Both the position numbers and the translations under genes were made by a program. Shown here piece by piece: positions 16,773-35,148 of a stretch of DNA of 64,000 nucleotides (position 1 is the stretch's first letter; every line of letters starts with the position of its first letter). The notes below the pieces were generated by a model, which did no database searches, was not told the DNA's origin, and saw only the letters and a list, made by a program, of their open reading frames with translations. The stretch is from Candidatus Colwellbacteria bacterium (lineage in GTDB: Bacteria > Patescibacteriota > Minisyncoccia > UBA6257 > Colwellbacteraceae), in NCBI GenBank assembly GCA_028710275.1, contig JAQTUL010000007.1, positions 952 through 64,951 on the forward strand, given 5' to 3'.

Positions 16773-16797
16773 ACCCGCCTGATGGCGGGTTTTTTTG
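16773..16797 (+). terminator. rho-independent terminator (ACCCGCC-tgatg-GCGGGT followed by T7)
   Basis: hairpin followed by TTTTTTT after the surface-protein gene; the ATG at 16782 lies inside it. Confidence 0.7.
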
Positions 16798-16853
16798 ATA
16801 TGGGTATCTTAGTGTTTGTATCATTTCCGTCTTTTGGTTTATCATCTTCATAT

Positions 16854-17333
16854 ATGTCGAACGCAGTAAACGGACCTTCTTACGAAACACTCGAGGTTAG
16901 CGCTAAACTATATCCATTGGAGGCCATATATGGCGCGGTCTATGTCTTTCTGGACAAGGCTTATTTTTTCCTTGATGGGGACCCGGAAGATAAGGTGACC
17001 ATAAATATAAAAGGGAAGGAGGGGATTTCCCAAAATGATCTCAAACAACTCAAAAACGAGCTTCAGAATGAGCTTATAAACTATGCGTTTAGGGTTAAAA
17101 TATCCGAATCCAACAGAAAGATAAGAGAATACATAGTCGGAGCCGCCCTTCTGGGGGTTACGGGCGAGTTTGATATTCATCCGGCAAGTATAAGACCGGA
17201 GGAAAAAAATGATGACCGCGGACATCTGGCCGAGGAAGAAGTTGTCATAGACGATGTCTGGGCCGATGATCCTTTGGGAATAGCCGTTCCCTGGGAGGAT
17301 AAATATATGACCGAAAATAAAGAAGGGGAATAG
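16854..17333 (+). CDS. hypothetical protein, candidate HxsD-like His-Xaa-Ser system accessory protein (start uncertain, 16782 to 16854)
   Basis: first ORF of the Hxs-type cluster; contains ELINYAFRV, which resembles the LLNDYxLRE motif I recall for HxsD (from memory, unverified). Confidence 0.4.
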   Translation: MSNAVNGPSYETLEVSAKLYPLEAIYGAVYVFLDKAYFFLDGDPEDKVTINIKGKEGISQNDLKQLKNELQNELINYAFRVKISESNRKIREYIVGAALLGVTGEFDIHPASIRPEEKNDDRGHLAEEEVVIDDVWADDPLGIAVPWEDKYMTENKEGE

Positions 17334-21369: not shown

Positions 21370-22706
21370 CGGAAGAATTTAAAAAAGAGAATGATGCGGT
21401 CGCTGAATCCTTTATAAAGAGATATTTTATCGATCCCTGGAAAAGCGATGACAGGAAGGTGTGGGAGCACTCACGGAACTTTGAAGTCTTTTTTGGGACA
21501 AAGTGTCCTTTTGGCTGCAAATACTGTTACCTGAACAGAAAAGGGGATGATTTGTATCCGACCGATATCCAGAGAGACGATGTTCTTATAGCTAATATGG
21601 CTAAGGTGCTCGAGTGGATGAAGCGAGAGAATATGGCACCAAAAGGATTTTTATTCTTTTCCGGAGAACCCTTCGTCCAAGAGGCATGCATGAAGGCAAT
21701 AGATATGACGCTCGATGCCTTTGCTGAAAGTGAAAAAAAGCCGGAGCAGATAACGGTTCCGACCGGTTTTGGATTCATGTTCTACCCAGAAATGGTCGAG
21801 CGCGTCGAGAAACTGATGGAAAAATCCAGGCGTGTTGGGATACCAATACATCTAAGCGCCTCGATAGACGGTAAGCATTGCGAGCCAAACCGACCCTTCA
21901 AGGATCAGACGATTAAGCGGGATGATGAATTTTACGACAAGGCCTTCAGCTTTATGGCTAAGTGGAAGATCGGAGCCCATCCGATGATCTATTCGGACCT
22001 TATTGAGAATTGGAAGGATAATTGGAAATGGTTCCAAGAAAAATTCTTAAAACACGGGATACCTTTCTATAAGATATATCTTTTAGAGGTAAGAAACGCC
22101 GAATGGTCACCGGATCAGATTGGCCGATTCTCGGAGTTCATTGATTTTCTCATTGAATGGACATATGAAAAGGTTTTCAATAAGAACGCTGATCATACTT
22201 TGGATTTCATATTCAACCACGGCTTCAATCTTTTAAGAAACTCATTTCTAGAGGGTGATGGAAGAGGGATGAAATGCGCCCTCCAAGATTATATGTTCCT
22301 AAGGCTGGGAGACCTTGCCTGGGTACCTTGTCATCGAACCTCTTATGACCAATTCATCTTTGGGCGTTTCATCGAGAAAAACGGGAAAATAGACGGTTTT
22401 AGCTCCGATAATTCCGATCTTATTCCGGCCATCTATTCCATGAAGGGGGAGGATATGCCTTATTGCGAGAACTGTGCCATAAGAGACCTGTGTGTCCAAG
22501 GGTGTCTCGGAAGCCAATATGAGGCGACGGGAGACCTTTTTTCGCCTATACCGACCGTCTGTGAGTTGGAACACGTAAAAGTATTTACGATAATAAAAAC
22601 TCTCAAGAGGCTGGGTCTTATTGATAAGGCGACGGCATATATCCCTGAAAATAGAAGAAAAGCGTTTAAGAGGGTCTCTGATATGGTTCTGAATACGGTA
22701 AACTGA
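21366..22706 (+). CDS. radical SAM/SPASM enzyme (Hxs-system maturase candidate), translationally coupled to the preceding rSAM
   Basis: CPFGCKYCY cluster motif, FFSGEPF, canonical SPASM CX2CX5CX3C (CENCAIRDLCVQGC); 4-nt start/stop overlap. Confidence 0.8.
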   Translation: MTEEFKKENDAVAESFIKRYFIDPWKSDDRKVWEHSRNFEVFFGTKCPFGCKYCYLNRKGDDLYPTDIQRDDVLIANMAKVLEWMKRENMAPKGFLFFSGEPFVQEACMKAIDMTLDAFAESEKKPEQITVPTGFGFMFYPEMVERVEKLMEKSRRVGIPIHLSASIDGKHCEPNRPFKDQTIKRDDEFYDKAFSFMAKWKIGAHPMIYSDLIENWKDNWKWFQEKFLKHGIPFYKIYLLEVRNAEWSPDQIGRFSEFIDFLIEWTYEKVFNKNADHTLDFIFNHGFNLLRNSFLEGDGRGMKCALQDYMFLRLGDLAWVPCHRTSYDQFIFGRFIEKNGKIDGFSSDNSDLIPAIYSMKGEDMPYCENCAIRDLCVQGCLGSQYEATGDLFSPIPTVCELEHVKVFTIIKTLKRLGLIDKATAYIPENRRKAFKRVSDMVLNTVN

Positions 22707-22722: not shown

Positions 22723-23253
22723 ATGGAGACAAAACCGGATATCCGAAAGATAAGGGTGGGCCTACAAAAAGTTAGGGACATATATGCCCTTAGGCGGGGT
22801 TTTACTGATATCCTCGAAGAAAAGATAAGCTCGGAACTCGATAAGGCACTCGGTACTGTTTCCGGACAGCTCGAAGCTTCATTCATTGACGAAGAAGTGA
22901 AGTCCGAGCCAATCGATGCTCCATGGCTAATAAAATTGACCAAGGCGATTGCCGACGCCTCTATTTATAGACAAATTGATGATCAGTTTGCTGATTTTGT
23001 ATCCGAATACTCCATGGTTGTGTCCGCCTGGAACGACCGAGTGGTTCGATCAAGTGAATTAACGAGAGAGCTTGCGGTTGCGGAATCCCTTGCAGTTAGT
23101 CGCCCGGCGATGATCCAAGCAGCAAAGGCACTAAGGGCTCTTTCTGAGAAGCTTATACAGCTTAACTTTATCGAAACCCCAGCTCTTAATATGAGTAAGT
23201 TCTATCTTGATTCGCTTCGGAAAAACTTGGAGAAGAAAGAAGAAAAAGAATAA
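22723..23253 (+). CDS. hypothetical alpha-helical protein between the Hxs-type module and the rSAM paralog array
   Basis: 176-aa ORF on the same strand, tightly packed; no recognisable family. Confidence 0.45.
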   Translation: METKPDIRKIRVGLQKVRDIYALRRGFTDILEEKISSELDKALGTVSGQLEASFIDEEVKSEPIDAPWLIKLTKAIADASIYRQIDDQFADFVSEYSMVVSAWNDRVVRSSELTRELAVAESLAVSRPAMIQAAKALRALSEKLIQLNFIETPALNMSKFYLDSLRKNLEKKEEKE

Positions 23254-23255
23254 AA

Positions 23256-24176
23256 ATGGAGAGAGTTGATATCAAGGTTGGATTCCAATGCAACAATCAT
23301 TGCATCTTCTGTATACAAGGCAACAAGAGGGAATACTGTAAGGACCGGACAGAAGATGAGATAAAGAAAATATTGGAACAGGGTCGGTCCGAAGGAAAGG
23401 AGGCGGTCGTTTTCACGGGCGGCGAGCCAACTTTTCGTCCGAAGCTTCTTCTTAATTGCGTCTCGTATGCAAGGGATATTGGTTATAGGGTCATACAGAT
23501 ACAATCTAATGGGAGGATGTTCGCATATCGGGCATATTGCGAGGAGATAGTCCGGGCGGGAGCTAATGAATTCTCTCCTGCGGTACATGGGTCGGTCGCC
23601 TCTATACATGACCGTCTCACAAACGCGCCCGGAAGTTTTGATCAGGTTACTGCTGGTATTCGAAATCTGAGAGAACTGAGACAATATATTCTTACCAATT
23701 CGGTGGTAACGAAAATAAATATGGAAGATATACCAAATCTAGCGAAGCTGTTGGTCGAGCTTAGGGTAGACCAGTTCCAGTTCGCTTTTATACATATAAA
23801 TCCGATTATTGCAGAAGACCAGAAGCTCATTGAAGAAGTGGTTCCCTCGATGGCCAAGGCCATGCCTTATGTGAAGGCTGGTCTCGATATAGGCCGGAAG
23901 TCGGGAGTTAAGTGCATGACTGAAGCAATTCCCTATTGCATGATGAGAGAGTACGAAGACCTTATCGCCGAGAGGATAATACCAGAAGCTCATGTCTTCG
24001 ATGCTGAGGAGGATATAGAGAAATACAGCGAGTACAGACAGAACGAAGGAAAATCAAAGGGGCCAAGGTGCGTTTCGGAGTGCATTAAGAACGACGTATG
24101 CGAGGGCCCATGGAGGGAATATCCGCAGCTTTTCGGCTGGGAAGAGTTTAAGCCGATAACCGAAGAAAAGATATGA
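23256..24176 (+). CDS. radical SAM enzyme, array paralog 1 (twitch/SPASM-like, MoaA/PqqE-type core)
   Basis: CNNHCIFC cluster motif, FTGGEPT, QSNGR, GSFDQ..GI.NL, C-terminal CVSECIKNDVCEGPW. Confidence 0.8.
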   Translation: MERVDIKVGFQCNNHCIFCIQGNKREYCKDRTEDEIKKILEQGRSEGKEAVVFTGGEPTFRPKLLLNCVSYARDIGYRVIQIQSNGRMFAYRAYCEEIVRAGANEFSPAVHGSVASIHDRLTNAPGSFDQVTAGIRNLRELRQYILTNSVVTKINMEDIPNLAKLLVELRVDQFQFAFIHINPIIAEDQKLIEEVVPSMAKAMPYVKAGLDIGRKSGVKCMTEAIPYCMMREYEDLIAERIIPEAHVFDAEEDIEKYSEYRQNEGKSKGPRCVSECIKNDVCEGPWREYPQLFGWEEFKPITEEKI

Positions 24177-25102
24177 AAAAGCAAGGAGTAATACTGCTAA
24201 GGTGGGCTAATAAATGTAATAACAACTGCGCGATGTGCAGTCTTCATTCAGGAGATAGTGAAGAGGAGGTTATGTCCATCGAAGAAGCGCTCGATTTCAC
24301 GAGAAAAAACGCGGCATCATATCAAAATATCGAGTTCACTGGAGGCGAGCCGACGATAAAGGAGGGTCTCGTCGATCTTGTCGCGGCAGCCAGAGAATCG
24401 GGATATGAGAGAATAGCTATAAGTACTAACGGCAGAAGGCTTTCTGATGAAAATTTTTGCCGTAAACTAATTGATAACGGTCTGAATGCTGTGACCTTCG
24501 CCCTCCATGGGCATGATGTGGAAACTCATGAAAAGAGGATGAGTAGATCGGATGGAGCTTTTAATGAGGCGATACGAGGTCTCAAAAACCTGATTACAGA
24601 ACATTCAGTGTCATTAAACGTCGCATCTGTTCTTGCAAGACATAACCACGAAACCTTCTCGGAGATTGGCAAGATGCTTATAGAGATGGGCGTTAAGCAA
24701 TGGAGTATATCGGACTTAATCCCGGACGGGAGGGCGCAGGATATATATGATTCACTAAGCCTCAGTCCTTCGGAGGCGGAAAAGGCAATAAGCGGCATTC
24801 TGCCTATGGCTGGTCAGATTGGGCTTGTTATATTTAATTTTTCAAGATGTTTTTTCCCGAGGGACCTTGATGACAGGATACTTTTCTTCGATACCAGAGA
24901 TAAAGCTGATCTTTGTAATATAGAGAGAAAGGAAGGCCGCTATGAGAAGGAGGGCGAAGTCTATCACGATTTTCATAAGACATATCTCGGGATATGCGAA
25001 AAATGTCCGGCATATGAGACATGCGGAGGAGTATGGAGAAGAAATATGGAGCTGTACGGAGAGGGGATAATGACCGAAGTAGCTAGAAGAAACGGTTTTT
25101 GA
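24173..25102 (+). CDS. radical SAM enzyme, array paralog 2
   Basis: CNNNCAMC, FTGGEPT, STNGRR, C-terminal CEKCPAYETCGGVW; ATGA overlap with paralog 1. Confidence 0.8.
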   Translation: MKKQGVILLRWANKCNNNCAMCSLHSGDSEEEVMSIEEALDFTRKNAASYQNIEFTGGEPTIKEGLVDLVAAARESGYERIAISTNGRRLSDENFCRKLIDNGLNAVTFALHGHDVETHEKRMSRSDGAFNEAIRGLKNLITEHSVSLNVASVLARHNHETFSEIGKMLIEMGVKQWSISDLIPDGRAQDIYDSLSLSPSEAEKAISGILPMAGQIGLVIFNFSRCFFPRDLDDRILFFDTRDKADLCNIERKEGRYEKEGEVYHDFHKTYLGICEKCPAYETCGGVWRRNMELYGEGIMTEVARRNGF

Positions 25103-25133
25103 TGCCGAGCTCTCCAAAAATAAAAAAAGACAT

Positions 25134-26075
25134 ATGAAAAAACCAGGAATGATATTCGTCAGATGGGCCAACAGATGCAATAACAATTGTGAGATGTGCA
25201 GTCTTCATTCTGACGACAGCAGAGATGAATCGATGTCGTTCGAAGAGGCGGCGGAGTTTACGATAAAAAACATCGATGAATATTCTAATATCGAGTTTAC
25301 GGGAGGCGAACCGACGATAAAGGAGGGCCTTTTAGAGCTTGTCGCTCTGGCGAAGAAGACGGGATACGATAAGATATGTATCAGTACTAACGGCAGAAGG
25401 CTTTCCGATGAAAATTTTTGCCACGCTCTCGCGGAGAACGGCTTGAACGTTGTGACATTTGCTCTTCATGGGCATAATGCTGAGACCCATGAGAGAATGA
25501 GCCGCGTTATCGGTTCTTTTGAAGAGTCGATGGAGGGAATAAAGAATGTTCTTAATGAACCAACGATGGCGCTTGCGATAACATCCGTCTTATCAAGACA
25601 TAACCACGAAACCTTCTCGGAGATTGGCAAGATGCTTATAGAGATGGGCGTTAAGCAATGGAGTATATCGGACTTAATCCCGGACGGGAGGGCGCAGGAT
25701 ATATATGATTCACTAAGCCTCAGTCCTTCGGAAATGGGGAAATCCCTAGCTGAGGCGATCCCTCTTTTTCCCGGTTTCTATCAGGTTGGGATATTTAATT
25801 TTTCAAGATGCTTTTTCCCAGAAGAACTCTATAGGAACGTTGCATTCTTTGATACGAAAGCAAAAGCTGATCTGTGGGATATAGAAGGTAAGGAGGGCCG
25901 CTATGAGAAGGAGGGCGAAGTTTATCACGATTTTCATAAGACATATCTCGGAATATGCGAAAAATGTCCGGCATATGAGACATGCGGAGGAGTATGGAAG
26001 AGAAGTCTGGAACTATATGGGCCTTCAGAAATGGAAAAAATAGCGAGGGTAAACGGTTTTGTGGAGACGGTGTAA
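25134..26075 (+). CDS. radical SAM enzyme, array paralog 3 (recent duplicate of paralog 2)
   Basis: CNNNCEMC, FTGGEPT, STNGRR; C-terminal half nearly identical to paralog 2, including 100%-identical nucleotide patches. Confidence 0.8.
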   Translation: MKKPGMIFVRWANRCNNNCEMCSLHSDDSRDESMSFEEAAEFTIKNIDEYSNIEFTGGEPTIKEGLLELVALAKKTGYDKICISTNGRRLSDENFCHALAENGLNVVTFALHGHNAETHERMSRVIGSFEESMEGIKNVLNEPTMALAITSVLSRHNHETFSEIGKMLIEMGVKQWSISDLIPDGRAQDIYDSLSLSPSEMGKSLAEAIPLFPGFYQVGIFNFSRCFFPEELYRNVAFFDTKAKADLWDIEGKEGRYEKEGEVYHDFHKTYLGICEKCPAYETCGGVWKRSLELYGPSEMEKIARVNGFVETV

Positions 26076-26096
26076 TATAGGATATAAATAAGACCA

Positions 26097-27074
26097 ATGG
26101 AAAAGACAGTATTCATACAATTGAACTCAACGTGCAATCAGCACTGTCTTTTTTGTAATAGGCCGCCGCAATCGGAAAGGAGCCCGGAATATCTAACCTT
26201 CGAACAAGTAATAAAAAAGATAGATGAGTGCGCTGATGATCCGGAGATAATAAGAGTGTGTCTCACCGGAGGGGAGCCGACCTTATATCCGCGTCTTGTT
26301 GAGGCGGTTACCCGTTGTCACGAGAGAGGCAAGCATGTGGAGATACAGACGAACGGGGTTGCCCTAACAAAGGAAAGAATAAAGGAATTGAAAGACGCAG
26401 GCATAGATATAATAAACTTTGCGTTCCATAGTCATAAGAAGGAAATAAGCAACAGGCTGAGAGGTGTCGATTTCGGTTTTGAGAACATAACCGAATCGAT
26501 AAAGGAGGCTAACCGTCTCGGAATAGTGATTCATATAGTGCATGTCATAACGAAGCTGAACTATAAGGATCTACCGGAGTTTATAGACACTTTTTCAGAT
26601 ATGGGACTTGATCTGCCAAAGATGTTCCTTAATCTTTCAATAGTCGTTCCGGATGGATGGGCCTGGGAGAATAAGGATGTGATCGTCCCAAGGATGTCTG
26701 ATATAAAGCCTTATCTAATCGAAGCCTGCCATAAATGCAAAGAATATGGGATAACCTTCGATATTTCGGAGGTGGTTCCGCTGTGCATAGTGGATGGGTA
26801 TGAGGATATGGCGATATCGACGGTCTTCAAGATAAACAACGCTGTTATAGTCGATGATTACCATACAGGTAAAAAATCCCTCGAGTTTGCCGCTGCTGAC
26901 GAGAGCTGGGCTATGAAGGCTCCCCAATGCGTAAAATGTTCCATGAACGAAATATGTGTCGGATTCTACCCTCATCTTTCTGAGATGTACGGCTTCGAAG
27001 ATTATGTTCCGAGAACGGATGATCCGGCCGAGATAATAAGCCGATTTAAGGGACCAGAAGATGACAGGCAATAA
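26097..27074 (+). CDS. radical SAM enzyme, array paralog 4
   Basis: CNQHCLFC, LTGGEPT, QTNG, C-terminal CVKCSMNEICVGFY. Confidence 0.8.
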   Translation: MEKTVFIQLNSTCNQHCLFCNRPPQSERSPEYLTFEQVIKKIDECADDPEIIRVCLTGGEPTLYPRLVEAVTRCHERGKHVEIQTNGVALTKERIKELKDAGIDIINFAFHSHKKEISNRLRGVDFGFENITESIKEANRLGIVIHIVHVITKLNYKDLPEFIDTFSDMGLDLPKMFLNLSIVVPDGWAWENKDVIVPRMSDIKPYLIEACHKCKEYGITFDISEVVPLCIVDGYEDMAISTVFKINNAVIVDDYHTGKKSLEFAAADESWAMKAPQCVKCSMNEICVGFYPHLSEMYGFEDYVPRTDDPAEIISRFKGPEDDRQ

Positions 27075-28035
27075 TAGAGACAATCAAGGTTTTCCAGAGA
27101 GGATCTGCGTCGTGATGACAGGCTTTTCGTGCAACAACAACTGCATCGTCTGCAGCGTTAGGCCTTACGGACGAAATAATCAGGATAGAGAAACGGCTGA
27201 CATAATAAGATCGATGGAGGAGGGAAGAAATAATGGTATTCCGGGAGTCGAGTTCACCGGAGGCGAACCGACCATGAGAAGAGATATTCTTGCCCTTATA
27301 TCGAAAGCGAAGGAGCTTGGCTATAAGGAAATAGCTTTAAGTACCAATGCAAGAGCATTCGGATACGAGAAGTTCGCGGATGCCGCGATAGAGAGCGGAC
27401 TTAATAGGGTTACGTCCACTATCGACGGTCACAGCGCAGTAGCTCATGATGCGCTGACGAGGACGCCTGGATCATTTGATCAGACGATACAAGGCATAAA
27501 GAATCTCGTTGCCCGCGGGATGAGAATCAGCGTCAATACGGTATTCTGTAAGATGACCGCGCCGAACCTATCTGACATAGGCCGGACCATAACCGATCTC
27601 GGAGTACCCGTGTGGGGAATATTAGACCTGATTCCGGACGGTAATATAGCGGAGATATATCCCGATTTCGTAGTCACTCTTAATGATACATACACCGCTC
27701 TTGATTCCATATATGATATAGCGAGGGAAATAGACCACGTTAATCTCTTTGATTTTCCTATTTGCGCCATACCGGAAAGACTTCGGATATCAAAGCATGC
27801 GGCGGTTTTTGATGCCTTTTCGCGTTCTGATCTTCTGAAGCAGACGGGTTATGACCCTCAGAGGTTCACTGAGGTGGAAGGAAATTACAGCGATATATAT
27901 AAGACGAGACTTAATGGATGCTTATCCTGCCTTAAGAAAGAGGATTGCGCCGGGATATGGAACAGATATATTGACGTTTATGGTAAGGAGGGCGCGGAAG
28001 ATTTCATCACGGACCATAAGGTAGGGAAACAATAA
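27061..28035 (+). CDS. radical SAM enzyme, array paralog 5
   Basis: CNNNCIVC, FTGGEPT, STNAR, TPGSFDQTIQGIKNL, C-terminal CLSCLKKEDCAGIW; 14-nt overlap with paralog 4. Confidence 0.8.
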   Translation: MTGNNRDNQGFPERICVVMTGFSCNNNCIVCSVRPYGRNNQDRETADIIRSMEEGRNNGIPGVEFTGGEPTMRRDILALISKAKELGYKEIALSTNARAFGYEKFADAAIESGLNRVTSTIDGHSAVAHDALTRTPGSFDQTIQGIKNLVARGMRISVNTVFCKMTAPNLSDIGRTITDLGVPVWGILDLIPDGNIAEIYPDFVVTLNDTYTALDSIYDIAREIDHVNLFDFPICAIPERLRISKHAAVFDAFSRSDLLKQTGYDPQRFTEVEGNYSDIYKTRLNGCLSCLKKEDCAGIWNRYIDVYGKEGAEDFITDHKVGKQ

Positions 28036-28051
28036 GGTTGCTGAATCTTAA

Positions 28052-29266
28052 ATGGAGAACAATATCAAAAAGATAGAGGAAATATGTAAGGACAAGAAGA
28101 TAGAACGCAACACCGGCAGTGAAGGCGCTAACAAGGTTATCTATCTCAATCTTGGGGCCCAATGCAATCAGAACTGTAATTTTTGTCTTATAAAAGGGAG
28201 TGAGGGTAATTTTCCATTCATGCCTCTCGTTGAAGCAAAAAGGATAATAAAGGATTTTGCCGAGAGTGGCGGAGAGATGCTTATGATAACAGGAGGCGAG
28301 CCGACTCTCTATCCCGAACTGGATGAGGTTATAGCCTTTGCGGATCTTTTTCCGGGAATAAAACAGGTTTCCATATTAACGAACGCGACCGCCTTTGCCG
28401 ATGGGCTATACACTGAGAAGATAATAGGACGAGATAAATCTAATAAGCTTGGATTTTCGGTCTCCTTTCATTCTCATATCGCAGAAGTCTCGGATAAGAT
28501 AACTCAGGGAATGCCGGGGGATTACGGAAGGACGGTCTCCGGCCTTGCTAATATATCCAAATGGAACAGACAAATATCCGTCTATCACGCGATAGTCTCA
28601 GATAATTTCAATCTCCTTCCTGATTTCGTCGAATGGATAAATGTTAATTTTCCGAACATAAATTCGGTTGTGATGGCTTATCCTTTTCCTCAAGGGAACG
28701 CTGATAAGAATTCCTGGATATACGTTAAATTTACGGAGCTTAAACCTTATTTACTGAAAGCGCTGCATTTTCTTAGAGAAAAAAATATCAGTTCTAATAT
28801 AGCGACCTGCGGACAATTTCCATTATGTATCATACCCGAGTTTGAGGAAAAGGTGCTGAACATGCTGATATTTTTCAGAAAGAATGTCGCGGGTACTGTC
28901 GGTAAAGACGTTTTTCATGAGACGGAATGGTCATCGGAGAAATGGATAAATAACTATAAGAATAAATCTCCTCAGTGTGACCAATGTATCCTTAATGAAG
29001 TTTGTCAGGGCTTTTGGAAAAAATACACGGACATATTTGGTTTTGACGGGGTATCTCCGGTTACCAGGAAGACTTTTGAGGGAAATATCGTCAAGATTGA
29101 TCTCAATACCGAAAATGTCTTTGATCGCGTGATGGCGAGGATATTATGGGAGAGGTTAAACCTTATAATAGCGAAAGGGGACGATGTGATGATATCTAGG
29201 CTGAAGGATGCTCTTGCGGACAATGGAGTTCCGGCAGTTGTGATAAGGGATGACGAAGAGGTCTAA
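28052..29266 (+). CDS. radical SAM enzyme, array paralog 6 (longer, 404 aa, with N- and C-terminal extensions)
   Basis: CNQNCNFC, ITGGEPT, C-terminal CDQCILNEVCQGFW. Confidence 0.75.
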   Translation: MENNIKKIEEICKDKKIERNTGSEGANKVIYLNLGAQCNQNCNFCLIKGSEGNFPFMPLVEAKRIIKDFAESGGEMLMITGGEPTLYPELDEVIAFADLFPGIKQVSILTNATAFADGLYTEKIIGRDKSNKLGFSVSFHSHIAEVSDKITQGMPGDYGRTVSGLANISKWNRQISVYHAIVSDNFNLLPDFVEWINVNFPNINSVVMAYPFPQGNADKNSWIYVKFTELKPYLLKALHFLREKNISSNIATCGQFPLCIIPEFEEKVLNMLIFFRKNVAGTVGKDVFHETEWSSEKWINNYKNKSPQCDQCILNEVCQGFWKKYTDIFGFDGVSPVTRKTFEGNIVKIDLNTENVFDRVMARILWERLNLIIAKGDDVMISRLKDALADNGVPAVVIRDDEEV

Positions 29267-29292
29267 AAAGGACTTGGGAAAAGATACATAAA

Positions 29293-30267
29293 ATGGATAT
29301 AACCGAGGCATACAAGAAGATACACGATATAACCGCGGCCATACCGATAAACGGGGAGGAAATATTAGGTGTTTACATAGGGATAAAGCCGGCGATGGCC
29401 GAGGCAAATACTGGGATATACAACGCTGATTTTCTAAGGAAGATGAGCGTAGTGAACTCTATATGCGGAGAGCTGGGTCTGAAGCTTGCTGTGTCGAAAT
29501 ATAAGTACGTCATAAATAGCCCAAGAGGCATATTTAAGGAGGTATTAAGAGACGACCCGGCGCCCGGATGTTTAATAATAGGTATAGCGAGAGATATGGA
29601 GAAGGCAGTAAGCGGCGTTGCTCATTATCATCTCAAGATGCATCATAGCAAGTATGGAAGGAGCTTCGCTGAGCTTATGGGATATCCTTCCTGTTGTATA
29701 GATTTTGGCGACTATCTCGCCAACAATAAAGGTGATCCGGATAATTTCGGGTTCAAAAATCCGGCAATTGAGGTACTCAAGAGGTCGGATAAAGTTGCCT
29801 GGCAGTTAAACGTTTTTTCTACATCTTCAATGCTTTCGCATTTTCCTTGCAGTTATACCTGCAAGAAGAGTATTGATTATATGAACTCTCTATTAGGCGC
29901 TATAAAGGAGGCCGATCTAGAACATGGCAGGGTGGTGGAAGATAACCTAAAACAGGATATTTCAGTATATTGGAGCTGTGTAGATAAGGTGATGCTTCGC
30001 GGAGATTTTATAAAAAAGGACTCGCTTTTCAGGGAAGGGGAGGCTAGATACGAGAGTATAAAATGGCCGATAGGATCAGAAAACTTTTATCAGGAGGTGG
30101 ACAGCGAGTATCTAGACGGGATGAAGACTATATGGAGGTCGATGGGGGAAGGAGACTGTATAAAGATATCAAAGAACAGCGTTTCAGTATTCAAGGGTGA
30201 TGATGAGATAGGACTTTTCGAGAAAGATAGCCAGTATTCACCGGTAATAGTAAGAGCCGATGCCTGA
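29293..30267 (+). CDS. hypothetical Cys/His-containing protein embedded in the rSAM array (not a radical SAM)
   Basis: 324-aa ORF lacking CxxxCxxC; HYHLKMHH, PSCCIDFGDY, FPCSYTCKK; 8-nt overlap with the next rSAM. Confidence 0.5.
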   Translation: MDITEAYKKIHDITAAIPINGEEILGVYIGIKPAMAEANTGIYNADFLRKMSVVNSICGELGLKLAVSKYKYVINSPRGIFKEVLRDDPAPGCLIIGIARDMEKAVSGVAHYHLKMHHSKYGRSFAELMGYPSCCIDFGDYLANNKGDPDNFGFKNPAIEVLKRSDKVAWQLNVFSTSSMLSHFPCSYTCKKSIDYMNSLLGAIKEADLEHGRVVEDNLKQDISVYWSCVDKVMLRGDFIKKDSLFREGEARYESIKWPIGSENFYQEVDSEYLDGMKTIWRSMGEGDCIKISKNSVSVFKGDDEIGLFEKDSQYSPVIVRADA

Positions 30268-31114
30268 CGAAAAAGATTTCATAAGCCCATACGTATATGT
30301 AGGTTTTCATTGCAATAATAATTGCATTTTTTGCAGTGAGGCTGATGAATATCTAGACGGAAGATTAGAGAAGGACTTTGATGATATCAAACATGAGATA
30401 GACCTTGTGAGGACCGGATACGATTTTGTAAATCTGATGGGTCGTGAGCCCACTCTCAGAAAGGATATCCTTTCCGTGGTTTCTTATGCGAAGAGTGTCG
30501 GTTTTAGACAGGTTGGCCTTACGACGAATGCCAGGATGTTATCGTACGCTCCTTTTGCTGAGGCTATCATAGGGTCTGGATTAAACCAGATAGGAATATC
30601 TCTTCTCGGCGCGACGGCCAAAACCCATGACCTTCTTTCGGCTGCTGAAGGGAGTTATGCTCAGACGATTGAAGGCATAAAGAATGTGATGAGATTTAAG
30701 GGGCCGGACCTGAGTGTTCTCGTAAACATCCCCCTTAACAGAAAGAACGTGTCCGAGCTGGAGGATGAGATAGATCTTCTAATATCTCTAGGGGTGAAAG
30801 AGATAAACGTGTTGTGGGTAGCCCCTCTTAGCCGAAGATCCAGGGATAAGGAACTTATCGGAAGGATGAGTGAACTCGGAAACCATGCTGCCAGGATTAT
30901 AAAAAATCATTTAGGAGAGGCAAAGTTTCTGATGGTCGAGTTCCTTCCTTGTAGCCTAAAAAAAGAATATAGAGATATGTTCTTTCCGTGCCTTGAGAAA
31001 AATCCGTCAAAAATAAGAATAACTTTATGTGGCGGATGTCCCTACGTCGACAAATGCGACGGAGTCCTTTCAAGCTATATTGATATGTACGGCGATGAAG
31101 AGTTTGAAATATAG
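30260..31114 (+). CDS. radical SAM enzyme, array paralog 7
   Basis: CNNNCIFC, GREPT, TTNAR, GSYAQTIEGIKNV, C-terminal CGGCPYVDKCDGV. Confidence 0.8.
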   Translation: MPDEKDFISPYVYVGFHCNNNCIFCSEADEYLDGRLEKDFDDIKHEIDLVRTGYDFVNLMGREPTLRKDILSVVSYAKSVGFRQVGLTTNARMLSYAPFAEAIIGSGLNQIGISLLGATAKTHDLLSAAEGSYAQTIEGIKNVMRFKGPDLSVLVNIPLNRKNVSELEDEIDLLISLGVKEINVLWVAPLSRRSRDKELIGRMSELGNHAARIIKNHLGEAKFLMVEFLPCSLKKEYRDMFFPCLEKNPSKIRITLCGGCPYVDKCDGVLSSYIDMYGDEEFEI

Positions 31115-31214
31115 GACCAGGTCTTCTTTATTGTGGATAGTGTTGTTTCAAAACGCCTGGTGTTAACATATAATCAATACATAAACCAAAAGAAAGCCTT
31201 TAAATAAAATAAAA

Positions 31215-31754
31215 ATGAAAAAATCTTATTATCTCGTCATAGCTCTTTTTGTGGCCGTAGCAGTATTTGTTGGGGGGGTACTTGTATACATGAATAAGGG
31301 AGTTTCGGTACCTTCTGATACCGTGCAGGAAAACATACAGACCGGCGAAGCCCCGACTATTCCGCCTGTGGATGATAAAGGAAAGTCTCCTGAGTTTAAG
31401 ACTACCTATAAGGGAAGGGACATAACCGCCAATCCCGATTACCAGATTGGCATTCTTGATGGAAAACTAGCTAAGGACCCGGACGTTGTTAATAAGACAA
31501 TATCGATGGATGTGGACATAATGAAGATATTTCCTAATATGGACATTGAGCAGCTGAATACCATTATTTCCGTATCAGGCGCTAAGTTTTTCGTGAAAGT
31601 CGGAAATGCTGAGCCTACAGAAGCGAGCTTGTCCGATCTTAAAGAAGGGGATGTAGTGAACGTTGGACTTGTCGATGGCCAGACGAATAGAGACATCGTC
31701 AAAGAGGGAAGCAAACTCACCGCTCAGCAGGTCTATAAGTTTATAATTCAATAA
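31215..31754 (+). CDS. membrane-anchored (signal-anchor) hypothetical protein within the rSAM array
   Basis: N-terminal TM helix YYLVIALFVAVAVFVGGVLVYM followed by a soluble domain; terminator follows. Confidence 0.5.
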   Translation: MKKSYYLVIALFVAVAVFVGGVLVYMNKGVSVPSDTVQENIQTGEAPTIPPVDDKGKSPEFKTTYKGRDITANPDYQIGILDGKLAKDPDVVNKTISMDVDIMKIFPNMDIEQLNTIISVSGAKFFVKVGNAEPTEASLSDLKEGDVVNVGLVDGQTNRDIVKEGSKLTAQQVYKFIIQ

Positions 31755-31773
31755 TTACCTATGGTGATAAGAG

Positions 31774-31802
31774 CCGACTCGATTAACTCGAGTCGGTTTT
31801 TT
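31774..31802 (+). terminator. rho-independent terminator inside the rSAM array (CCGACTCGA-ttaac-TCGAGTCGG followed by T6)
   Basis: perfect 9-bp stem followed by TTTTTT; followed by a TATAAT-like box at 31825..31832. Confidence 0.7.
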
Positions 31803-31838
31803 GTCCTTTTCTGTATCTCTTGTATATAATTCCGACTA

Positions 31839-32816
31839 ATGCCCCCAGATATAATAAAGAAAACAGTCGTATTTGCCGGATACAGATGTAACAACAACTG
31901 CCGGTTTTGTATGGAAGCTGATAAGAGAGATTTGCCTGTGAGGGGTACTGCTGTAATCAAGGGCGAGCTTAAATCAGCTAGAGAAAGGGGGTCTGATTAT
32001 ATCGAGATTATCGGAGGGGAGGCCGCAATGAGGTCTGACATAACATCAATCATCTCCTATGCCAAGGATTTGGGCTTTTCGACCATTATGATGGCTACGA
32101 ACGGCAGAATGTTTTCCTATCCGGAACTTACAAAGCGGCTCATCGATGCTGGGCTTAATAGCCTTGTTTTCTCGATACATGGAGCCGATGCGGAGACTCA
32201 TGACTACCTCACTCGGTCGCCTGGCAGTTTCGATCAATTGATAGTCGGGATGGAGAATGTGAAAAATGCGGCTATTATCTCGGGAGCCAGAATATCGCTG
32301 GGGTCGAATACCTGCATAGTAAAGGATAATTACCGTCAGCTTCCGGCAATCAGTGAGCTTATAGCTTCTTCTGGCGTTGGGAATTCAGAGTTTATATTCG
32401 TAGACTGCAACGAGGGAGGGGCGAAGAACAGTTTTGATGAGCTCGTTCCGAAGATATCTGACGCAGCTCCTTATATGAGAGAGTGTCTTGATATCGGAAA
32501 CAGAAATAAGGCTGATCATTGGGATGTCAGATATGTGCCCTTATGCTATTTTCCGGATCATCTGAATAGGATAAGTGAATTACATGAGGCAAAGACCTTT
32601 CATACGGAACATATCGCCCAGGATTTCGTGAATACCGATGCGCAAAGCGGTCGCAAGAATGTAGGGAGGAGAAAATCAAGAAGGTGTTCCGAGTGTATTC
32701 TCGACCCATGGTGTGAGGGAATATGGAGAACATATATCTCACGCTATGGAGATGATGAGCTTATTCCCATTACTGAGCTGACAGTTGGTCAAAAAGAGAT
32801 GCTTGATGGGCTCTAA
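31839..32816 (+). CDS. radical SAM enzyme, array paralog 8
   Basis: CNNNCRFC, IGGEAA, ATNGRMFSY, SPGSFDQLIVGMENV, C-terminal CSECILDPWCEGIW. Confidence 0.8.
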   Translation: MPPDIIKKTVVFAGYRCNNNCRFCMEADKRDLPVRGTAVIKGELKSARERGSDYIEIIGGEAAMRSDITSIISYAKDLGFSTIMMATNGRMFSYPELTKRLIDAGLNSLVFSIHGADAETHDYLTRSPGSFDQLIVGMENVKNAAIISGARISLGSNTCIVKDNYRQLPAISELIASSGVGNSEFIFVDCNEGGAKNSFDELVPKISDAAPYMRECLDIGNRNKADHWDVRYVPLCYFPDHLNRISELHEAKTFHTEHIAQDFVNTDAQSGRKNVGRRKSRRCSECILDPWCEGIWRTYISRYGDDELIPITELTVGQKEMLDGL

Positions 32817-32858
32817 TTCCGATATTTCGGGCAAAATGGTATCATTTACGAAATAGTC

Positions 32859-33056
32859 ATGGAAAAAGAGTACATAATCACCTATAGGAGCGAAGAGCAT
32901 TTTGAAGTTGTTGGTTGGGTAAAGGCCGAGTCTATGGAAGAGGCCAAAGAGCTGGCCAGAAACGTGCTCGCCAAAGAAGCGTCTTTTTATGGCGTGACCG
33001 AGGCAGAGATAGCCGAATACGGAACGTCGGAGACGATGAGCTTCGAAGAGAAGTAA
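32859..33056 (+). CDS. small acidic protein (65 aa), candidate precursor peptide or partner protein, TAATG-coupled to the next rSAM
   Basis: ORF ends with TAA overlapping the ATG at 33056; highly acidic, no Cys. Confidence 0.4.
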   Translation: MEKEYIITYRSEEHFEVVGWVKAESMEEAKELARNVLAKEASFYGVTEAEIAEYGTSETMSFEEK

Positions 33057-33985
33057 TGGATGTCTGCGTCTGGAACAGGTGCAATAACAGGTGTGTTATG
33101 TGTACTAATCCCGAAGGTTTCGGGGACGTTTCTTTGAGTGGACCTTATTCTTATGAGGGGGTTCTTTCGAGGGTATTAAGGATAAAAGACATTCCCGATT
33201 CGGCTGCTGAGGCTATATGTCTTACCGGAGGTGAGCCGACCTCCCATCCTGAGTTTCTAAGATTGGTCTCAACAATCAAGAGGGAGCTTCCTAATAATCA
33301 GCTAATACTTGCCACGAATGGCAGAATGTTCGCATATGAGGAGTTTGCCAGAAAATATCTTGCAATCGGTAGCTCGAAGATAGAAATACCGATACATGGA
33401 TCAGAGGCCAGACTCCATGATGCCATAACGTGCGTGAAGGGAAGTTTTGAACAGACTATCCAGGGGATAGAAAACATATTGAAGTACATGTCATTTGAGC
33501 ATGAGCTCGAAATAAGACTTGTTCTTACAAAGATAAATTTACATGATACGCGGGCGATACTGGATCTTGTTAAAGAAAGTTTTCCAAGGATAACCAGAGT
33601 GGTAGTGATATTCCCTGAATTCGAGGGTATGTGCGCCAAGAATATGGAGGTGGTCGGGCTTAAATATTCGGATGTTAAGGAGGAGATGACGGGATTGATA
33701 TCCGAATGGAAAGAATCTTTCGATGGTTTAAGCCTATATCATTTCCCATTATGTTCCCTTCCGGTCGGCCTTTGGGGATATGCCTGGAGGACATTGAGAG
33801 GGAATGAGATAATGTTTCCTGAACAATGTAATGGGTGCCGTTTTAAAAAATATTGTCTGGGCGTACACGTAGATTATGCCAAACTTATAGGTACAGATGA
33901 GTTTATGCCTCCGACAGGGAATATAAAGATAAAAGAGAATAATGGTCCGGATAGGGAATATCACCCGATAATCGAAGCTATATAA
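33056..33985 (+). CDS. radical SAM enzyme, array paralog 9 (start set at Met48 of the longer track ORF)
   Basis: CNNRCVMC, LTGGEPT, ATNGRMFAY, GSFEQTIQGIENI, C-terminal CNGCRFKKYCLGVH; the upstream in-frame extension is Arg-rich junk overlapping the small ORF. Confidence 0.75.
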   Translation: MDVCVWNRCNNRCVMCTNPEGFGDVSLSGPYSYEGVLSRVLRIKDIPDSAAEAICLTGGEPTSHPEFLRLVSTIKRELPNNQLILATNGRMFAYEEFARKYLAIGSSKIEIPIHGSEARLHDAITCVKGSFEQTIQGIENILKYMSFEHELEIRLVLTKINLHDTRAILDLVKESFPRITRVVVIFPEFEGMCAKNMEVVGLKYSDVKEEMTGLISEWKESFDGLSLYHFPLCSLPVGLWGYAWRTLRGNEIMFPEQCNGCRFKKYCLGVHVDYAKLIGTDEFMPPTGNIKIKENNGPDREYHPIIEAI

Positions 33986-33996
33986 AATAATCAACA

Positions 33997-35148
33997 ATGG
34001 GAATAACGATATTTTTGGCAGCTCCCGCGCTCATATTAATAGGGGTGATATCCTCTTATACCGATCTTAAGTACGGTCGCATACCTAATTGGTTGATAAT
34101 ATTCGGTTTTGTGTATGCTATCTGCCTGTATTCTTTCCTATTCGGATACAATGCTTTCTTTCTTCATCAAGCGGTAAACGGGGCATATATTTTAAAGGCT
34201 TTACAGAACACAGCAATCGCCTTTGTCTCTGGGGTTATATTATGGAAAATGAGTTTCTGGTCAGCTGGCGATGCCAAGCTTTTTGCTGTCTATGCGGCTA
34301 TTCTTCCGCTAGAAGCCTATATGAATGGATACGTTGATCAGTTTCCCTCCTTTAATCTCCTGGTAAATCTTTTCTTTCCACTGGTACTAGTTCTTATAAT
34401 AAAGGCTATCTGGTTTGCTATTAAAACATGGTTTCCGTTAATCAAAAACGGTTCATGGAAAGAAGAGATAAAGATAAAAGACATACCGATGATGGCATTG
34501 AAGGGCGCATTAGCCCTTCTTAAGTTATTTGGTAACTTCTTCTTCATGTACCTTATCTTTATGACGGTTGGGCAGATAGTATCTTTCATCTCTCATGGGA
34601 CATTCAAGATAGATCCTTTCATAATGTATTTTGGAATATTAGCCATCATGGGAAGGTTCAATGCGATACAGAAAAAATATAAACTAGCAAAGTTCGGGGT
34701 ATATTCTATATCTGCCGGATATCTAACTTATCTCCTTATTCTCGCTCAATACGCGACTCTCAGAAAGATGATTGTGATGGCTCTAGTATTCATGGTCGCG
34801 ATAACAGTGACCAGGAAGATTCTTGATATATATATTCAAAAAGCCGAAATAAAAGAAGTTGTAGTCAAAAGCCTCGTCCGAGGGACAATGCTTCATTCAT
34901 CTGAGATGTCTGCCATAAAGAATGAGCTAGTGGAGAACGGAAGAGGGGAGGAATTCGGTTGGTTCGAGCCCGGCGGACTAAAAGAATCACAGGTTCTGAT
35001 AATAAAAGAGATCTTTTCTGATAGGGAAGAAACGATATTTAGGGCATATAGAACCTTTCCATTCGCTCCTTTCCTATCCCTTTCGGTAATTATAACCATG
35101 ATAACCGGGATATCGTTCATAAAATATTTTCAGGTATTCATGAAATAA
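33997..35148 (+). CDS. polytopic membrane protein with N-terminal A24 prepilin-peptidase-like (TadV/CpaA/FlaK-type) aspartic protease domain plus a long C-terminal extension
   Basis: first Asp motif YTDLKYGRIPNWL (D...RIPN) and second Asp motif SAGDAKLFA (GxGD-like) in TM helices; about 8 TM helices in total. Confidence 0.55.
   Translation: MGITIFLAAPALILIGVISSYTDLKYGRIPNWLIIFGFVYAICLYSFLFGYNAFFLHQAVNGAYILKALQNTAIAFVSGVILWKMSFWSAGDAKLFAVYAAILPLEAYMNGYVDQFPSFNLLVNLFFPLVLVLIIKAIWFAIKTWFPLIKNGSWKEEIKIKDIPMMALKGALALLKLFGNFFFMYLIFMTVGQIVSFISHGTFKIDPFIMYFGILAIMGRFNAIQKKYKLAKFGVYSISAGYLTYLLILAQYATLRKMIVMALVFMVAITVTRKILDIYIQKAEIKEVVVKSLVRGTMLHSSEMSAIKNELVENGRGEEFGWFEPGGLKESQVLIIKEIFSDREETIFRAYRTFPFAPFLSLSVIITMITGISFIKYFQVFMK

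What the first reader, a model, noticed from the sequence alone, without database searches (positions are those of the whole stretch)
33997..35148. A24 prepilin-peptidase-like aspartic protease with large C-terminal extension terminating the rSAM array
Seen in sequence: the TM protein carries YTDLKYGRIPNWL and SAGDAKLFA, which match the two catalytic-Asp motifs of TadV/CpaA/FlaK-type prepilin peptidases (D..RIPN and GxGD). It also has about 230 extra residues with further TM helices and a soluble segment. There are no pilin, ATPase or secretin genes nearby. Inference: it may act as the leader peptidase or exporter-associated protease for products of this locus rather than for pili. The HxsA N-terminus (basic leader, then ELGMGIAALGFML hydrophobic segment) is loosely reminiscent of a class-III signal.
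Basis: partly seen in the sequence, partly recalled or inferred. Interest (0 to 1): 0.55.

Follow-up and report, generated by a model that had tools for sequence, protein, structure and literature searches.

The report
Prepilin-type protease dedicated to Hxs system
The gene encodes a membrane aspartic protease of the prepilin-peptidase family that, in ultra-small bacteria and archaea, is encoded with the radical-SAM "His-Xaa-Ser" (Hxs) genes instead of with pilus genes, so it probably trims the leader of the HxsA repeat protein, a processing step whose enzyme is still unknown in the recently described Hxs anti-phage system.

Summary
ORF 33997-35148 (+) is a 383-aa polytopic membrane protein. 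It passes Pfam Peptidase_A24 (36.4 bits, cut-off 26.5), and D23 and D92 are invariant in 53 homologs.

The "C-terminal extension" is not new. It is the 9-10-helix EppA-type archaeal build with an Arc_PepC-like soluble domain.

The window comes from a Candidatus Colwellbacteria (CPR) contig. The gene closes an 18-kb same-strand operon: HxsD, HxsB, HxsA, two rSAM/SPASM genes and about ten HxsC-like rSAM genes.

In 80 species-level loci from CPR, Omnitrophota and DPANN archaea:
- 74 have Hxs or rSAM genes within 10 kb.
- 64 have one directly adjacent on the same strand.
- 7 have pilus genes, never adjacent.
- One genome (L067) also has a canonical PilD inside its own pilus cluster.

HxsA proteins in these loci share a conserved leader (LPKIKKxIxxFLxSEEGKISKK) followed by a hydrophobic segment. 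This has class-III-signal architecture but not the canonical cleavage motif.

Best reading: a dedicated HxsA leader protease (0.55). The substrate and the cleavage site are inferred, not shown. I found no paper reporting this link. It is a new variant of a known kind; interest about 0.6.

The parts
33997..35148 (+). EppA-like A24 (GxGD-type) aspartic membrane protease, 383 aa. It is the Hxs-associated member and the subject of the finding.
   Evidence: Pfam PF01478 36.4 bits, above GA 26.5. 53-homolog alignment A1. AF2 model pLDDT 88.3. FlaK 3s0x_B is the only sensible Foldseek match.
34063..34065 (+). Codon of D23, the first putative catalytic Asp (YTD-LKYGRIPN).
   Evidence: Invariant in 53/53 homologs.
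34270..34272 (+). Codon of D92, the second putative catalytic Asp, in W-S-A-G-D-A-K-L-F (a GxGD motif with the first Gly replaced by Ser/Ala).
   Evidence: W88, D92 and K94 invariant; A90, G91, L95 and F96 at 90% or more.
34846..35052 (+). Soluble alpha/beta domain (aa about 284-352), Arc_PepC-like, predicted to be cytoplasmic.
   Evidence: AF2 secondary structure. Aligned distant members P0055 and P0063 pass Pfam PF06819 Arc_PepC (28.8 and 25.3 bits, GA 23.4). 5 of 53 members match at E<0.01. Topology is my inference from the positive-inside rule.
35053..35109 (+). Last transmembrane helix, carrying the near-invariant FPFAPF motif (aa 353-359).
   Evidence: P355, F356, A357 and P358 conserved at 90% or more.
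19180..20055 (+). HxsA precursor, 291 aa, with 61 H-x-S triplets. Leader aa 1-29 (...LPAIRKNIESFLISEEGRISKKS), hydrophobic segment aa 30-48, then T-S-A|H.
   Evidence: NCBIfam HxsA4 NF038313 101.4 bits, above cut-off 55. Leader conserved in 34 loci. Hydrophobicity.
16782..17333 (+). HxsD.
   Evidence: TIGR03976 62 bits, above cut-off 50.
17550..19040 (+). HxsB, radical SAM/SPASM maturase.
   Evidence: TIGR03978 475.9 bits, above cut-off 370.
20089..22706 (+). Two further radical SAM/SPASM genes (20089-21369 and 21366-22706).
   Evidence: Homologs co-occur in L019 and L042.
22723..23253 (+). 176-aa protein of unknown function, conserved alongside the two SPASM genes.
   Evidence: No Pfam hit. 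Homologs in L019 and L042.
23256..33985 (+). Array of nine HxsC-like radical SAM genes: 23256-24176, 24173-25102, 25134-26075, 26097-27074, 27061-28035, 28052-29266, 30260-31114, 31839-32816 and 33056-33985. It is interrupted by a DUF483-like gene (29293-30267), a 179-aa anchored protein (31215-31754) and a 65-aa acidic protein (32859-33056).
   Evidence: Best NCBIfam matches are HxsC/HxsC4, all below their cut-offs (e.g. 175.6 vs 267.9). Pfam Radical_SAM. The same array pattern appears in related loci.

Best explanation
The gene encodes an active GxGD-type aspartic intramembrane protease of family A24, built like the archaeal 9-10-helix prepilin peptidase EppA. It has been recruited as a fixed component of the CPR/Omnitrophota/DPANN version of the His-Xaa-Ser (Hxs) radical-SAM system.

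Proposed mechanism:
1. HxsA is made with a conserved, basic N-terminal leader of about 30 residues (LPKIKKxIxxFLxSEEGKISKK), followed directly by a Gly-containing hydrophobic segment of about 18 residues.
2. The His-x-Ser repeats are modified in the cytoplasm by HxsB and the HxsC-like rSAM enzymes, with HxsD.
3. The hydrophobic segment inserts into the membrane.
4. The protease has both Asp residues at the cytoplasmic membrane face and a cytoplasmic Arc_PepC-like domain beside them. It cuts off the leader at or near the junction between the basic region and the hydrophobic segment, as prepilin peptidases do with class III signals.
5. This releases or activates a surface-exposed HxsA.

Shown here: family membership, invariant Asp pair, EppA-type architecture, conserved synteny, the conserved leader, and a separate PilD in one genome.

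Inferred: that HxsA is the substrate, where the cut falls, the topology, and the order of events.
For: - Pfam A24 match above its cut-off.
- D23 and D92 invariant in 53 homologs down to 20% identity.
- High-confidence model whose only sensible PDB match is the GxGD protease FlaK (3s0x_B: prob 0.60, TM 0.49 on target length, rmsd 4.4 A over 148 columns).
- Distant family members pass Arc_PepC. One aligns end to end with NCBIfam 'prepilin peptidase EppA' (E=1e-10).
- Contexts of eight homologs at 25-52% identity: seven sit in or next to rSAM arrays, six of them directly after an rSAM gene, often with overlapping stop and start codons.
- 80 species-level loci: 74 with Hxs-related genes in range, 64 directly adjacent on the same strand, 41 with HxsB/HxsD, 31 with a leader-bearing HxsA, 7 with pilus genes, none adjacent.
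- Woesearchaeota loci show a compact A24-HxsD-HxsB-HxsA operon. HxsB is above the curated cut-off (about 450 vs 370). HxsD is at the cut-off: 52.9 bits in L087, 48.5 in L080, cut-off 50.
- Loci found independently through the HxsA leader contain the protease in 9 of 40 cases, despite mostly short contigs.
- L067 has a canonical PilD (A24_N_bact + Peptidase_A24) in its pilus cluster in addition to the Hxs-linked gene.
Against: - No cleavage has been demonstrated.
- The HxsA leader has no conserved Gly/Ala at the expected -1 position (mostly Asn/Ser/Asp). It has no +1 Gln as EppA requires, and it matches no Class_IIIsignal or N_methyl profile.
- An AxA-like site follows the hydrophobic segment in most HxsA proteins. 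This fits ordinary signal peptidase I cleavage and makes a prepilin-type cut unnecessary.
- Several leader-bearing loci with 8-10 kb of flank (L104, L109, L112, L127) show no A24 gene, so the protease is not obligatory or lies further away.
- Proteobacterial Hxs systems work with four genes and no A24 gene.
Confidence: 0.55

Rival explanations
1. Signal-peptide-peptidase-like role. HxsA is exported by Sec and cut by signal peptidase I at the AxA-like site. The A24 enzyme then cleaves the remaining membrane-embedded signal peptide, clearing it or releasing the conserved 30-residue N-terminal peptide into the cytoplasm.
For: Small residues at -3/-1 (TSA|H, VSA|S, ILA|E, IWA|G, THA|G, ASA|G, AFA|G) follow the hydrophobic segment in most leaders. 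The segment contains conserved helix-breaking Gly residues. From general knowledge, GxGD proteases include the signal peptide peptidases.
Against: No A24-family enzyme is known to act as a signal peptide peptidase. The family's known reaction is a cut at the cytoplasmic edge of the hydrophobic segment (PMC4858521). It is unclear why only this precursor would need a dedicated clearance enzyme.
Confidence: 0.15
2. Ordinary housekeeping prepilin peptidase for type IV pilins (or archaeal pilins) that merely lies near the rSAM array.
For: It belongs to family A24 and is related to EppA, a pilin-specific peptidase. Pilus genes lie within 1-9 kb in 7 of 80 loci, and an N_methyl pilin-like gene follows the protease plus a ferredoxin gene in L001 and L004. 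JGI auto-annotates relatives as CpaA. A few distant archaeal members (L010, L072) have no Hxs genes nearby.
Against: Adjacency to Hxs/rSAM genes holds in 64 of 80 loci across CPR, Omnitrophota and DPANN, while pilus genes are never adjacent. The 64-kb window has no pilus gene. L067 has its own canonical PilD beside the pilin gene. The protein lacks the bacterial A24_N_bact domain.
Confidence: 0.05
3. The protease acts on another membrane-anchored product of the locus instead of HxsA. Candidates are the 179-aa N-terminally anchored protein (31215-31754) or the secreted 481-aa protein (15315-16760).
For: The 179-aa protein starts MKK + hydrophobic segment and recurs in related CPR loci.
Against: Its N-terminus has no conserved residue around a possible cut site (no invariant columns). 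It is absent from most loci, including the compact archaeal A24-HxsD-HxsB-HxsA operons.
Confidence: 0.07
4. Mainly non-proteolytic role: a membrane scaffold or export conduit that docks the rSAM enzymes and HxsA at the membrane.
For: Frequent stop/start overlap with the preceding rSAM gene suggests co-translation or a complex. There are five helices beyond the A24 core.
Against: Invariant Asp pair and conserved GD-x-KL motif across 53 homologs argue for retained catalysis. EppA has the same extra helices and is a protease. No transporter fold was matched credibly (all such matches have rmsd above 20 A).
Confidence: 0.08

Closest known systems
EppA, the 9-TM archaeal prepilin peptidase (arCOG02300; NCBIfam NF053826; Methanococcus maripaludis)
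   Same: A24 core with two Asp residues, extra transmembrane helices, an Arc_PepC-type soluble domain and a length of about 330-390 aa. A distant family member aligns with the EppA model over positions 5-331 of 334. EppA is a substrate-dedicated peptidase, unlike the broad PibD.
   Different: Scores are far below the EppA cut-off (41 vs 450 bits), and the window protein itself gives no hit. It is encoded with Hxs/rSAM genes, not pilus genes. It occurs mostly in CPR bacteria, Omnitrophota and DPANN. The presumed substrate has no +1 Gln or DUF361-type signal.
FlaK / PibD (5-6-TM archaeal preflagellin/prepilin peptidases; PDB 3S0X)
   Same: GxGD aspartic membrane protease fold. FlaK is the only sensible structural match. 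It has no N-methyltransferase domain.
   Different: FlaK is about 230 aa with fewer helices. Its substrates are archaellins or pilins with K-G at -2/-1.
PilD / TadV (CpaA) bacterial prepilin peptidases
   Different: There is no A24_N_bact domain. The protein is much longer than TadV/CpaA. A true PilD coexists in L067. It is not encoded with pilus, Tad or T2SS genes.
HXS anti-phage system of Proteobacteria (HxsA-D; Nat Commun 2026, PMC13128918)
   Same: The window has HxsD, HxsB and an HxsA-class repeat protein above curated cut-offs. In E. coli, HxsA must be N-terminally processed and exported to work.
   Different: The E. coli system has four genes, one HxsC, five HxS repeats, a 22-residue signal peptide plus a peptidoglycan-binding domain, and no protease gene. 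That paper places 99.7% of systems in Pseudomonadota. Here there are about ten HxsC-like paralogs, two extra SPASM enzymes, 61 repeats, a different conserved leader (HxsA3/HxsA4 class) and a dedicated A24 protease.

Membership tests
Peptidase family A24 (Pfam PF01478) | Profile match above the curated gathering score. | tested here: met
   36.4 bits vs 26.5, E=7.5e-9, aa 12-122. 51 of 53 family members match at E<0.01.
Peptidase family A24 (Pfam PF01478) | Two conserved catalytic Asp residues, the second in a GxGD-type motif. | tested here: met
   D23 and D92 invariant in 53 homologs. The motif is W-[SA]-A-G-D-A-K-L-F, so the first Gly of GxGD is Ser/Ala.
Peptidase family A24 (Pfam PF01478) | FlaK-like GxGD protease fold. 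| tested here: inconclusive
Peptidase family A24 (Pfam PF01478) | Endoproteolytic removal of a basic leader preceding a hydrophobic segment. | not testable with these tools
   Needs co-expression or an in vitro cleavage assay.
EppA equivalog (NCBIfam NF053826) | Score at or above the curated cut-off (450 bits). | tested here: not met
   The window protein has no NCBIfam hit. The best family member, P0064, scores 41.4 bits, though it aligns full length.
EppA-type architecture (9-TM form with Arc_PepC domain) | Extra TM helices plus the PF06819 Arc_PepC soluble domain after the A24 core. | tested here: met
   Ten long helices plus an alpha/beta domain at 284-352 in the model. Aligned members P0055 and P0063 pass PF06819. 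The window protein itself does not reach E<=1 for PF06819, so this homology is by transitivity.
Bacterial PilD-type prepilin peptidase | N-terminal A24_N_bact (PF06750) domain, and location with pilus/T2SS genes. | tested here: not met
   No PF06750 match. No pilus genes in the window. A real PilD in L067 has the domain.
His-Xaa-Ser (Hxs) system, as the locus the protease belongs to | HxsA repeat protein, HxsB and HxsD above curated cut-offs. | tested here: met
   HxsA4 101.4 vs 55; HxsB 475.9 vs 370; HxsD 62 vs 50.
His-Xaa-Ser (Hxs) system, as the locus the protease belongs to | An HxsC equivalog (TIGR03977, 267.9 bits or more). | tested here: not met
   The best paralog (33056-33985) scores 175.6. 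The others score 95-106 on HxsC and 115-148 on HxsC4 (cut-off 500). They are HxsC-like paralogs, not equivalogs.
Class III (prepilin-type) signal peptide, for HxsA as the presumed substrate | Short basic n-region, Gly/Ala at -1, then a hydrophobic stretch of about 20 residues; match to N_methyl or Class_IIIsignal profiles. | tested here: not met
   The basic region plus hydrophobic segment is present and conserved. However, -1 is mostly Asn/Ser/Asp, the leader is about 30 residues, and there is no Pfam hit at E<=10.

The most novel reading that the evidence does not exclude
A prepilin-peptidase lineage has been re-used as the leader peptidase of a radical-SAM-matured protein. After cleavage, HxsA is pilin-like: it has a hydrophobic N-terminal helix and an outward-facing, rSAM-modified His-x-Ser repeat. 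This protein sits on or polymerises from the surface of wall-poor CPR and DPANN cells and acts, as in E. coli, against incoming phage DNA. The same leader/protease pair also serves non-HxS cores (WSD, TST and Cys-rich repeats seen in L057, L073 and L042). By extension, the unidentified HxsA-processing activity in E. coli might depend on a host A24 peptidase.
Probability: 0.15. Interest if true: 0.8.

Novelty: new variant of a known kind. Interest (0 to 1): 0.6.

Why it matters
The Hxs system was first given a function in 2026, as a block to phage DNA entry in E. coli. That work left open how HxsA is N-terminally processed and exported. A dedicated, easily mutated protease encoded inside the CPR/DPANN versions gives a concrete candidate and a simple experiment: HxsA with and without the protease, wild type against D23A/D92A.

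It would also be the first case of an A24 prepilin-type peptidase serving a radical-SAM peptide or protein maturation pathway. It extends Hxs systems, reported as 99.7% proteobacterial, to ultra-small bacteria and archaea in a greatly expanded form with about ten rSAM paralogs. The family is large: 839 clusters at 50% identity with E<=1e-30.

Tried and rejected
- Chimera test. I joined aa 1-145 to the C-terminal helix to see whether the Pfam A24 match would extend to the end of the profile. It stayed at positions 3-89 of 104. My idea that the extra region is an insertion inside the A24 core therefore remains untested.
- Sequence searches of the PDB, with the single protein and with the family profile, found nothing at E<=10.
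- The 22-sequence leader alignment was too variable for the metagenome scan. An 8-sequence alignment worked.
- The 179-aa anchored protein was rejected as an alternative class-III substrate because no column is conserved around its N-terminus.
- The HxsA N-termini gave no Class_IIIsignal or N_methyl match.
- Three literature searches for a link between A24 or prepilin peptidases and rSAM, RiPP or Hxs systems in CPR/DPANN found nothing relevant. PMC9062424 mentions Hxs only in passing.

Full report
**Observation.** ORF 33997-35148 (+) is real: ATG start, 383 aa. It carries YTD23LKYGRIPNWL and SAGD92AKLFA. Pfam Peptidase_A24 matches aa 12-122 at 36.4 bits (gathering score 26.5, E=7.5e-9). NCBIfam has no model for it. 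An identical protein is deposited as 'A24 family peptidase [Candidatus Colwellbacteria bacterium]' on a 68-kb contig, so the window is from a CPR/Patescibacteria genome.

**Locus.** The gene is the last of an 18-kb same-strand block.
- HxsD: 16782-17333, 62 bits vs cut-off 50.
- HxsB: 17550-19040, 475.9 vs 370.
- HxsA-class repeat protein: 19180-20055, 291 aa, 61 HxS triplets, HxsA4 model 101 vs 55.
- Two more rSAM/SPASM genes and a 176-aa unknown.
- Nine HxsC-like rSAM genes (best 175.6 vs 267.9, so paralogs and not equivalogs), interspersed with a DUF483-like gene, a 179-aa anchored protein and a 65-aa acidic protein.

Downstream come 2-oxoacid:ferredoxin oxidoreductase, RecG and a CCA-adding enzyme, all housekeeping. 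The rest of the window is also housekeeping. No PilB/C/M/T homolog, no N-terminal N_methyl motif and no second GxGD ORF occurs in the 64 kb.

**The protein.** A search of 5.8 billion proteins gave 72 mostly full-length relatives of 350-395 aa. A profile search of 1.84 billion cluster representatives gave 839 hits at E<=1e-30 and 1848 at E<=1e-10, so the family is large.
- In an alignment of 53 members at 20-67% identity, D23, W88, D92, K94, P104, Y108 and F116 are invariant. A C-terminal FPFAPF motif is near-invariant.
- AlphaFold2 with this alignment gave pLDDT 88.3 and pTM 0.78. The model has ten long helices and a small alpha/beta domain at about 284-352.
- Against the PDB, Foldseek's only geometrically sensible match is the GxGD protease FlaK (3s0x_B: prob 0.60, target-normalised TM 0.49, rmsd 4.4 A over 148 columns). 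Its E-value is weak, and the higher-ranked transporters have rmsd above 20 A.
- More sensitive fold libraries were unavailable.

**The 'C-terminal extension' is a known architecture.** Distant aligned members P0055 and P0063 pass Pfam PF06819, 'Archaeal Peptidase A24 C-terminal domain'. Five of 53 members match it at E<0.01. P0064 aligns over positions 5-331 of 334 of NCBIfam 'prepilin peptidase EppA', but at 41 bits against a cut-off of 450. Makarova et al. describe a 5-TM PibD/FlaK form and a 9-TM EppA form of archaeal A24 peptidases (PMC4858521). The family here is therefore EppA-like in build but is not an EppA ortholog. By the positive-inside rule (my inference), both Asp residues and the soluble domain face the cytoplasm, as in other A24 enzymes.

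**Synteny.** The contexts of eight homologs at 25-52% identity were read.
- Seven sit in or next to rSAM arrays.
- Six of those lie directly after an rSAM gene, often with overlapping stop and start codons. One (L008) has HxsD/HxsB nearby.
- A distant archaeal member (P0063) has no such neighbours.

A scan of one genome per species found 230 genomes with a relative. The best 80 loci come from CPR, Omnitrophota, Woesearchaeota, Nanoarchaeota and Aenigmatarchaeota. I scored six-frame ORFs of these loci with an HMM of the window's HxsC-like paralogs and with the window's HxsD/HxsB and other proteins.
- 74 of 80 have Hxs-related genes within the flank.
- 64 of 80 have one directly adjacent on the same strand (48 upstream, 20 downstream).
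- 41 have HxsB/HxsD.
- 31 have a leader-bearing HxsA.
- 7 have pilus genes, 1-9 kb away and never adjacent.

The typical CPR order is ...rSAM, 65-aa ORF, rSAM, A24. The typical DPANN order is A24, HxsD, HxsB, HxsA. Curated models confirm HxsB in Woesearchaeota and Omnitrophota loci (450-537 bits vs 370). HxsD scores 48.5-66.8 against a cut-off of 50, so the L080 copy falls just below it.

In L067 the neighbouring pilus cluster has its own canonical PilD (A24_N_bact 116.9 bits plus Peptidase_A24 55 bits) right after a pilin gene. The Hxs-linked gene is therefore a second, distinct A24 peptidase in that genome. This argues strongly against a housekeeping prepilin-peptidase role.

**The likely substrate.** HxsA proteins in these loci, bacterial and archaeal alike, share a strongly conserved N-terminus: (K)LPKIKKxIxxFLxSEEGKISKK. 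It is followed at once by a Gly-containing hydrophobic segment (best 15-residue Kyte-Doolittle mean 1.6-2.7), and usually by a small-x-small site just before the first His.
- These precursors match NCBIfam HxsA4/HxsA3 from model position 1-2, so curators already know the precursor class.
- The architecture (basic region, then hydrophobic segment) is that of a class III signal.
- However, -1 is mostly Asn/Ser/Asp instead of Gly/Ala, there is no +1 Gln as EppA needs, and no Class_IIIsignal or N_methyl profile matches.
- The same leader is also fused to non-HxS cores (WSD repeats, TST repeats, Cys-rich), as expected for a leader-guided system.

I also sampled loci independently through the leader (pattern SEEG[KR]ISK[KES]) in metagenomes. 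The A24 gene appeared in 9 of 40 loci. Most of the rest are short contigs or arrays that run off the flank. In the window itself the protease lies 14 kb from HxsA. Four longer loci (L104, L109, L112, L127) show none in range. The association is frequent but not proven obligatory.

**What is known.** A 2026 paper shows that the four-gene proteobacterial HXS system blocks phage DNA entry. HxsA must be N-terminally processed and reach the periplasm. [quoted passage not shown] 'Additional host factors' are likely. That paper reports 99.7% of systems in Pseudomonadota and lists no protease gene (PMC13128918). Searches for any link between A24 or prepilin peptidases and rSAM/RiPP/Hxs systems or CPR/DPANN found nothing.

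**Interpretation.**
- Best explanation (0.55): an Hxs-dedicated, EppA-like aspartic protease removes the conserved HxsA leader at the cytoplasmic membrane face. I put the narrower claim, that it is a dedicated Hxs component whatever its exact substrate, at about 0.85.
- A signal-peptide-peptidase-like role after signal peptidase I cleavage at the AxA-like site (0.15).
- Another locus-encoded substrate (0.07).
- A mainly structural or export role (0.08).
- A housekeeping prepilin peptidase (0.05).

All of these can be separated by one experiment: HxsA with and without the protease (wild type, D23A, D92A), followed by N-terminal mapping.

**Verdict.** The precise family assignment is corrected from TadV/CpaA to EppA-type. 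This is a new variant of a known kind: a prepilin-type peptidase recruited into a radical-SAM protein-maturation and probable anti-phage system of ultra-small prokaryotes.

Noticed in passing
window 32859-33056 (+): Conserved acidic 65-aa ORF (KEYIxxYRSEEHFEVxGxV...). Its stop overlaps the ATG at 33056 of the last HxsC-like rSAM. Homologs sit directly upstream of the last rSAM in more than 20 related loci. The mechanical TTG start at 32915 for that rSAM is therefore over-extended. Function unknown; it could be a partner or chaperone of that rSAM.
   Followed up: partly
L057:11811-12458, L073:2504-4174, L042:1960-2640: The HxsA-type leader (LPKIKK...SEEGKISKK plus a hydrophobic segment) is fused to cores that are not His-x-Ser repeats. 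These are W-S-D repeats, a 557-aa protein with T-S-T repeats, and a Cys/Asp/Gly-rich core. The leader appears to work as a portable module.
   Followed up: no
L067:19989-20768 versus L067:9968-11194: One Patescibacteria genome carries two different A24 peptidases 9 kb apart. One is a canonical PilD (A24_N_bact + Peptidase_A24) at the end of a type IV pilus cluster. The other is the Hxs-linked EppA-like one.
   Followed up: yes
window 24173-25102 and 25134-26075 (+): Two adjacent HxsC-like rSAM paralogs share long identical stretches (e.g. HNHETFSEIGKMLIEMGVKQWSISDLIPDGRAQDIYDSLSLSPSE), which points to a recent tandem duplication or gene conversion within the array.
   Followed up: no
window 29293-30267 (+): A 324-aa protein with a weak DUF483 match (18.5 bits, below the cut-off). 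It recurs inside the rSAM arrays of many related loci (label duf483). It is a non-rSAM component of unknown role.
   Followed up: partly
window 31215-31754 (+): A 179-aa protein with an MKK + hydrophobic N-terminal anchor and no Pfam match. Homologs are placed between rSAM genes in L001, L004, L012 and L016. No cleavage motif is conserved.
   Followed up: partly
window 19180-20055 (+): This HxsA is very long (291 aa, 61 HxS triplets) compared with five repeats in E. coli HxsA. It also has an internal duplication of an H-[YT]-S-Y-F-E-N-x-A-G-x-G-R-H motif before the repeats. The repeat DNA creates long spurious ORFs in other frames (19298-19990 + and 19322-19858 -).
   Followed up: no
window 14695-15195 and 15315-16760 (+): A cupredoxin-like protein and a 481-aa secreted protein with a Cys-rich C-terminus lie between a GT2 glycosyltransferase and HxsD, on the same strand. 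Whether they belong to the Hxs operon is unknown.
   Followed up: no
L001:10335-12160 and L004:9487-11220: In the two closest relatives of the window locus, the protease is followed by a small 4Fe-4S ferredoxin and a pilin-like protein of about 500 aa; the L001 copy has an N_methyl motif, its L004 homolog has no Pfam hit on record. A type IV pilus cluster starts 3 kb downstream. In the window and in L006 a POR operon follows instead.
   Followed up: partly
L006:1-459: An Rce1-like/CPBP intramembrane protease gene lies at the upstream edge of one rSAM array. It could be a second membrane protease associated with these systems.
   Followed up: no
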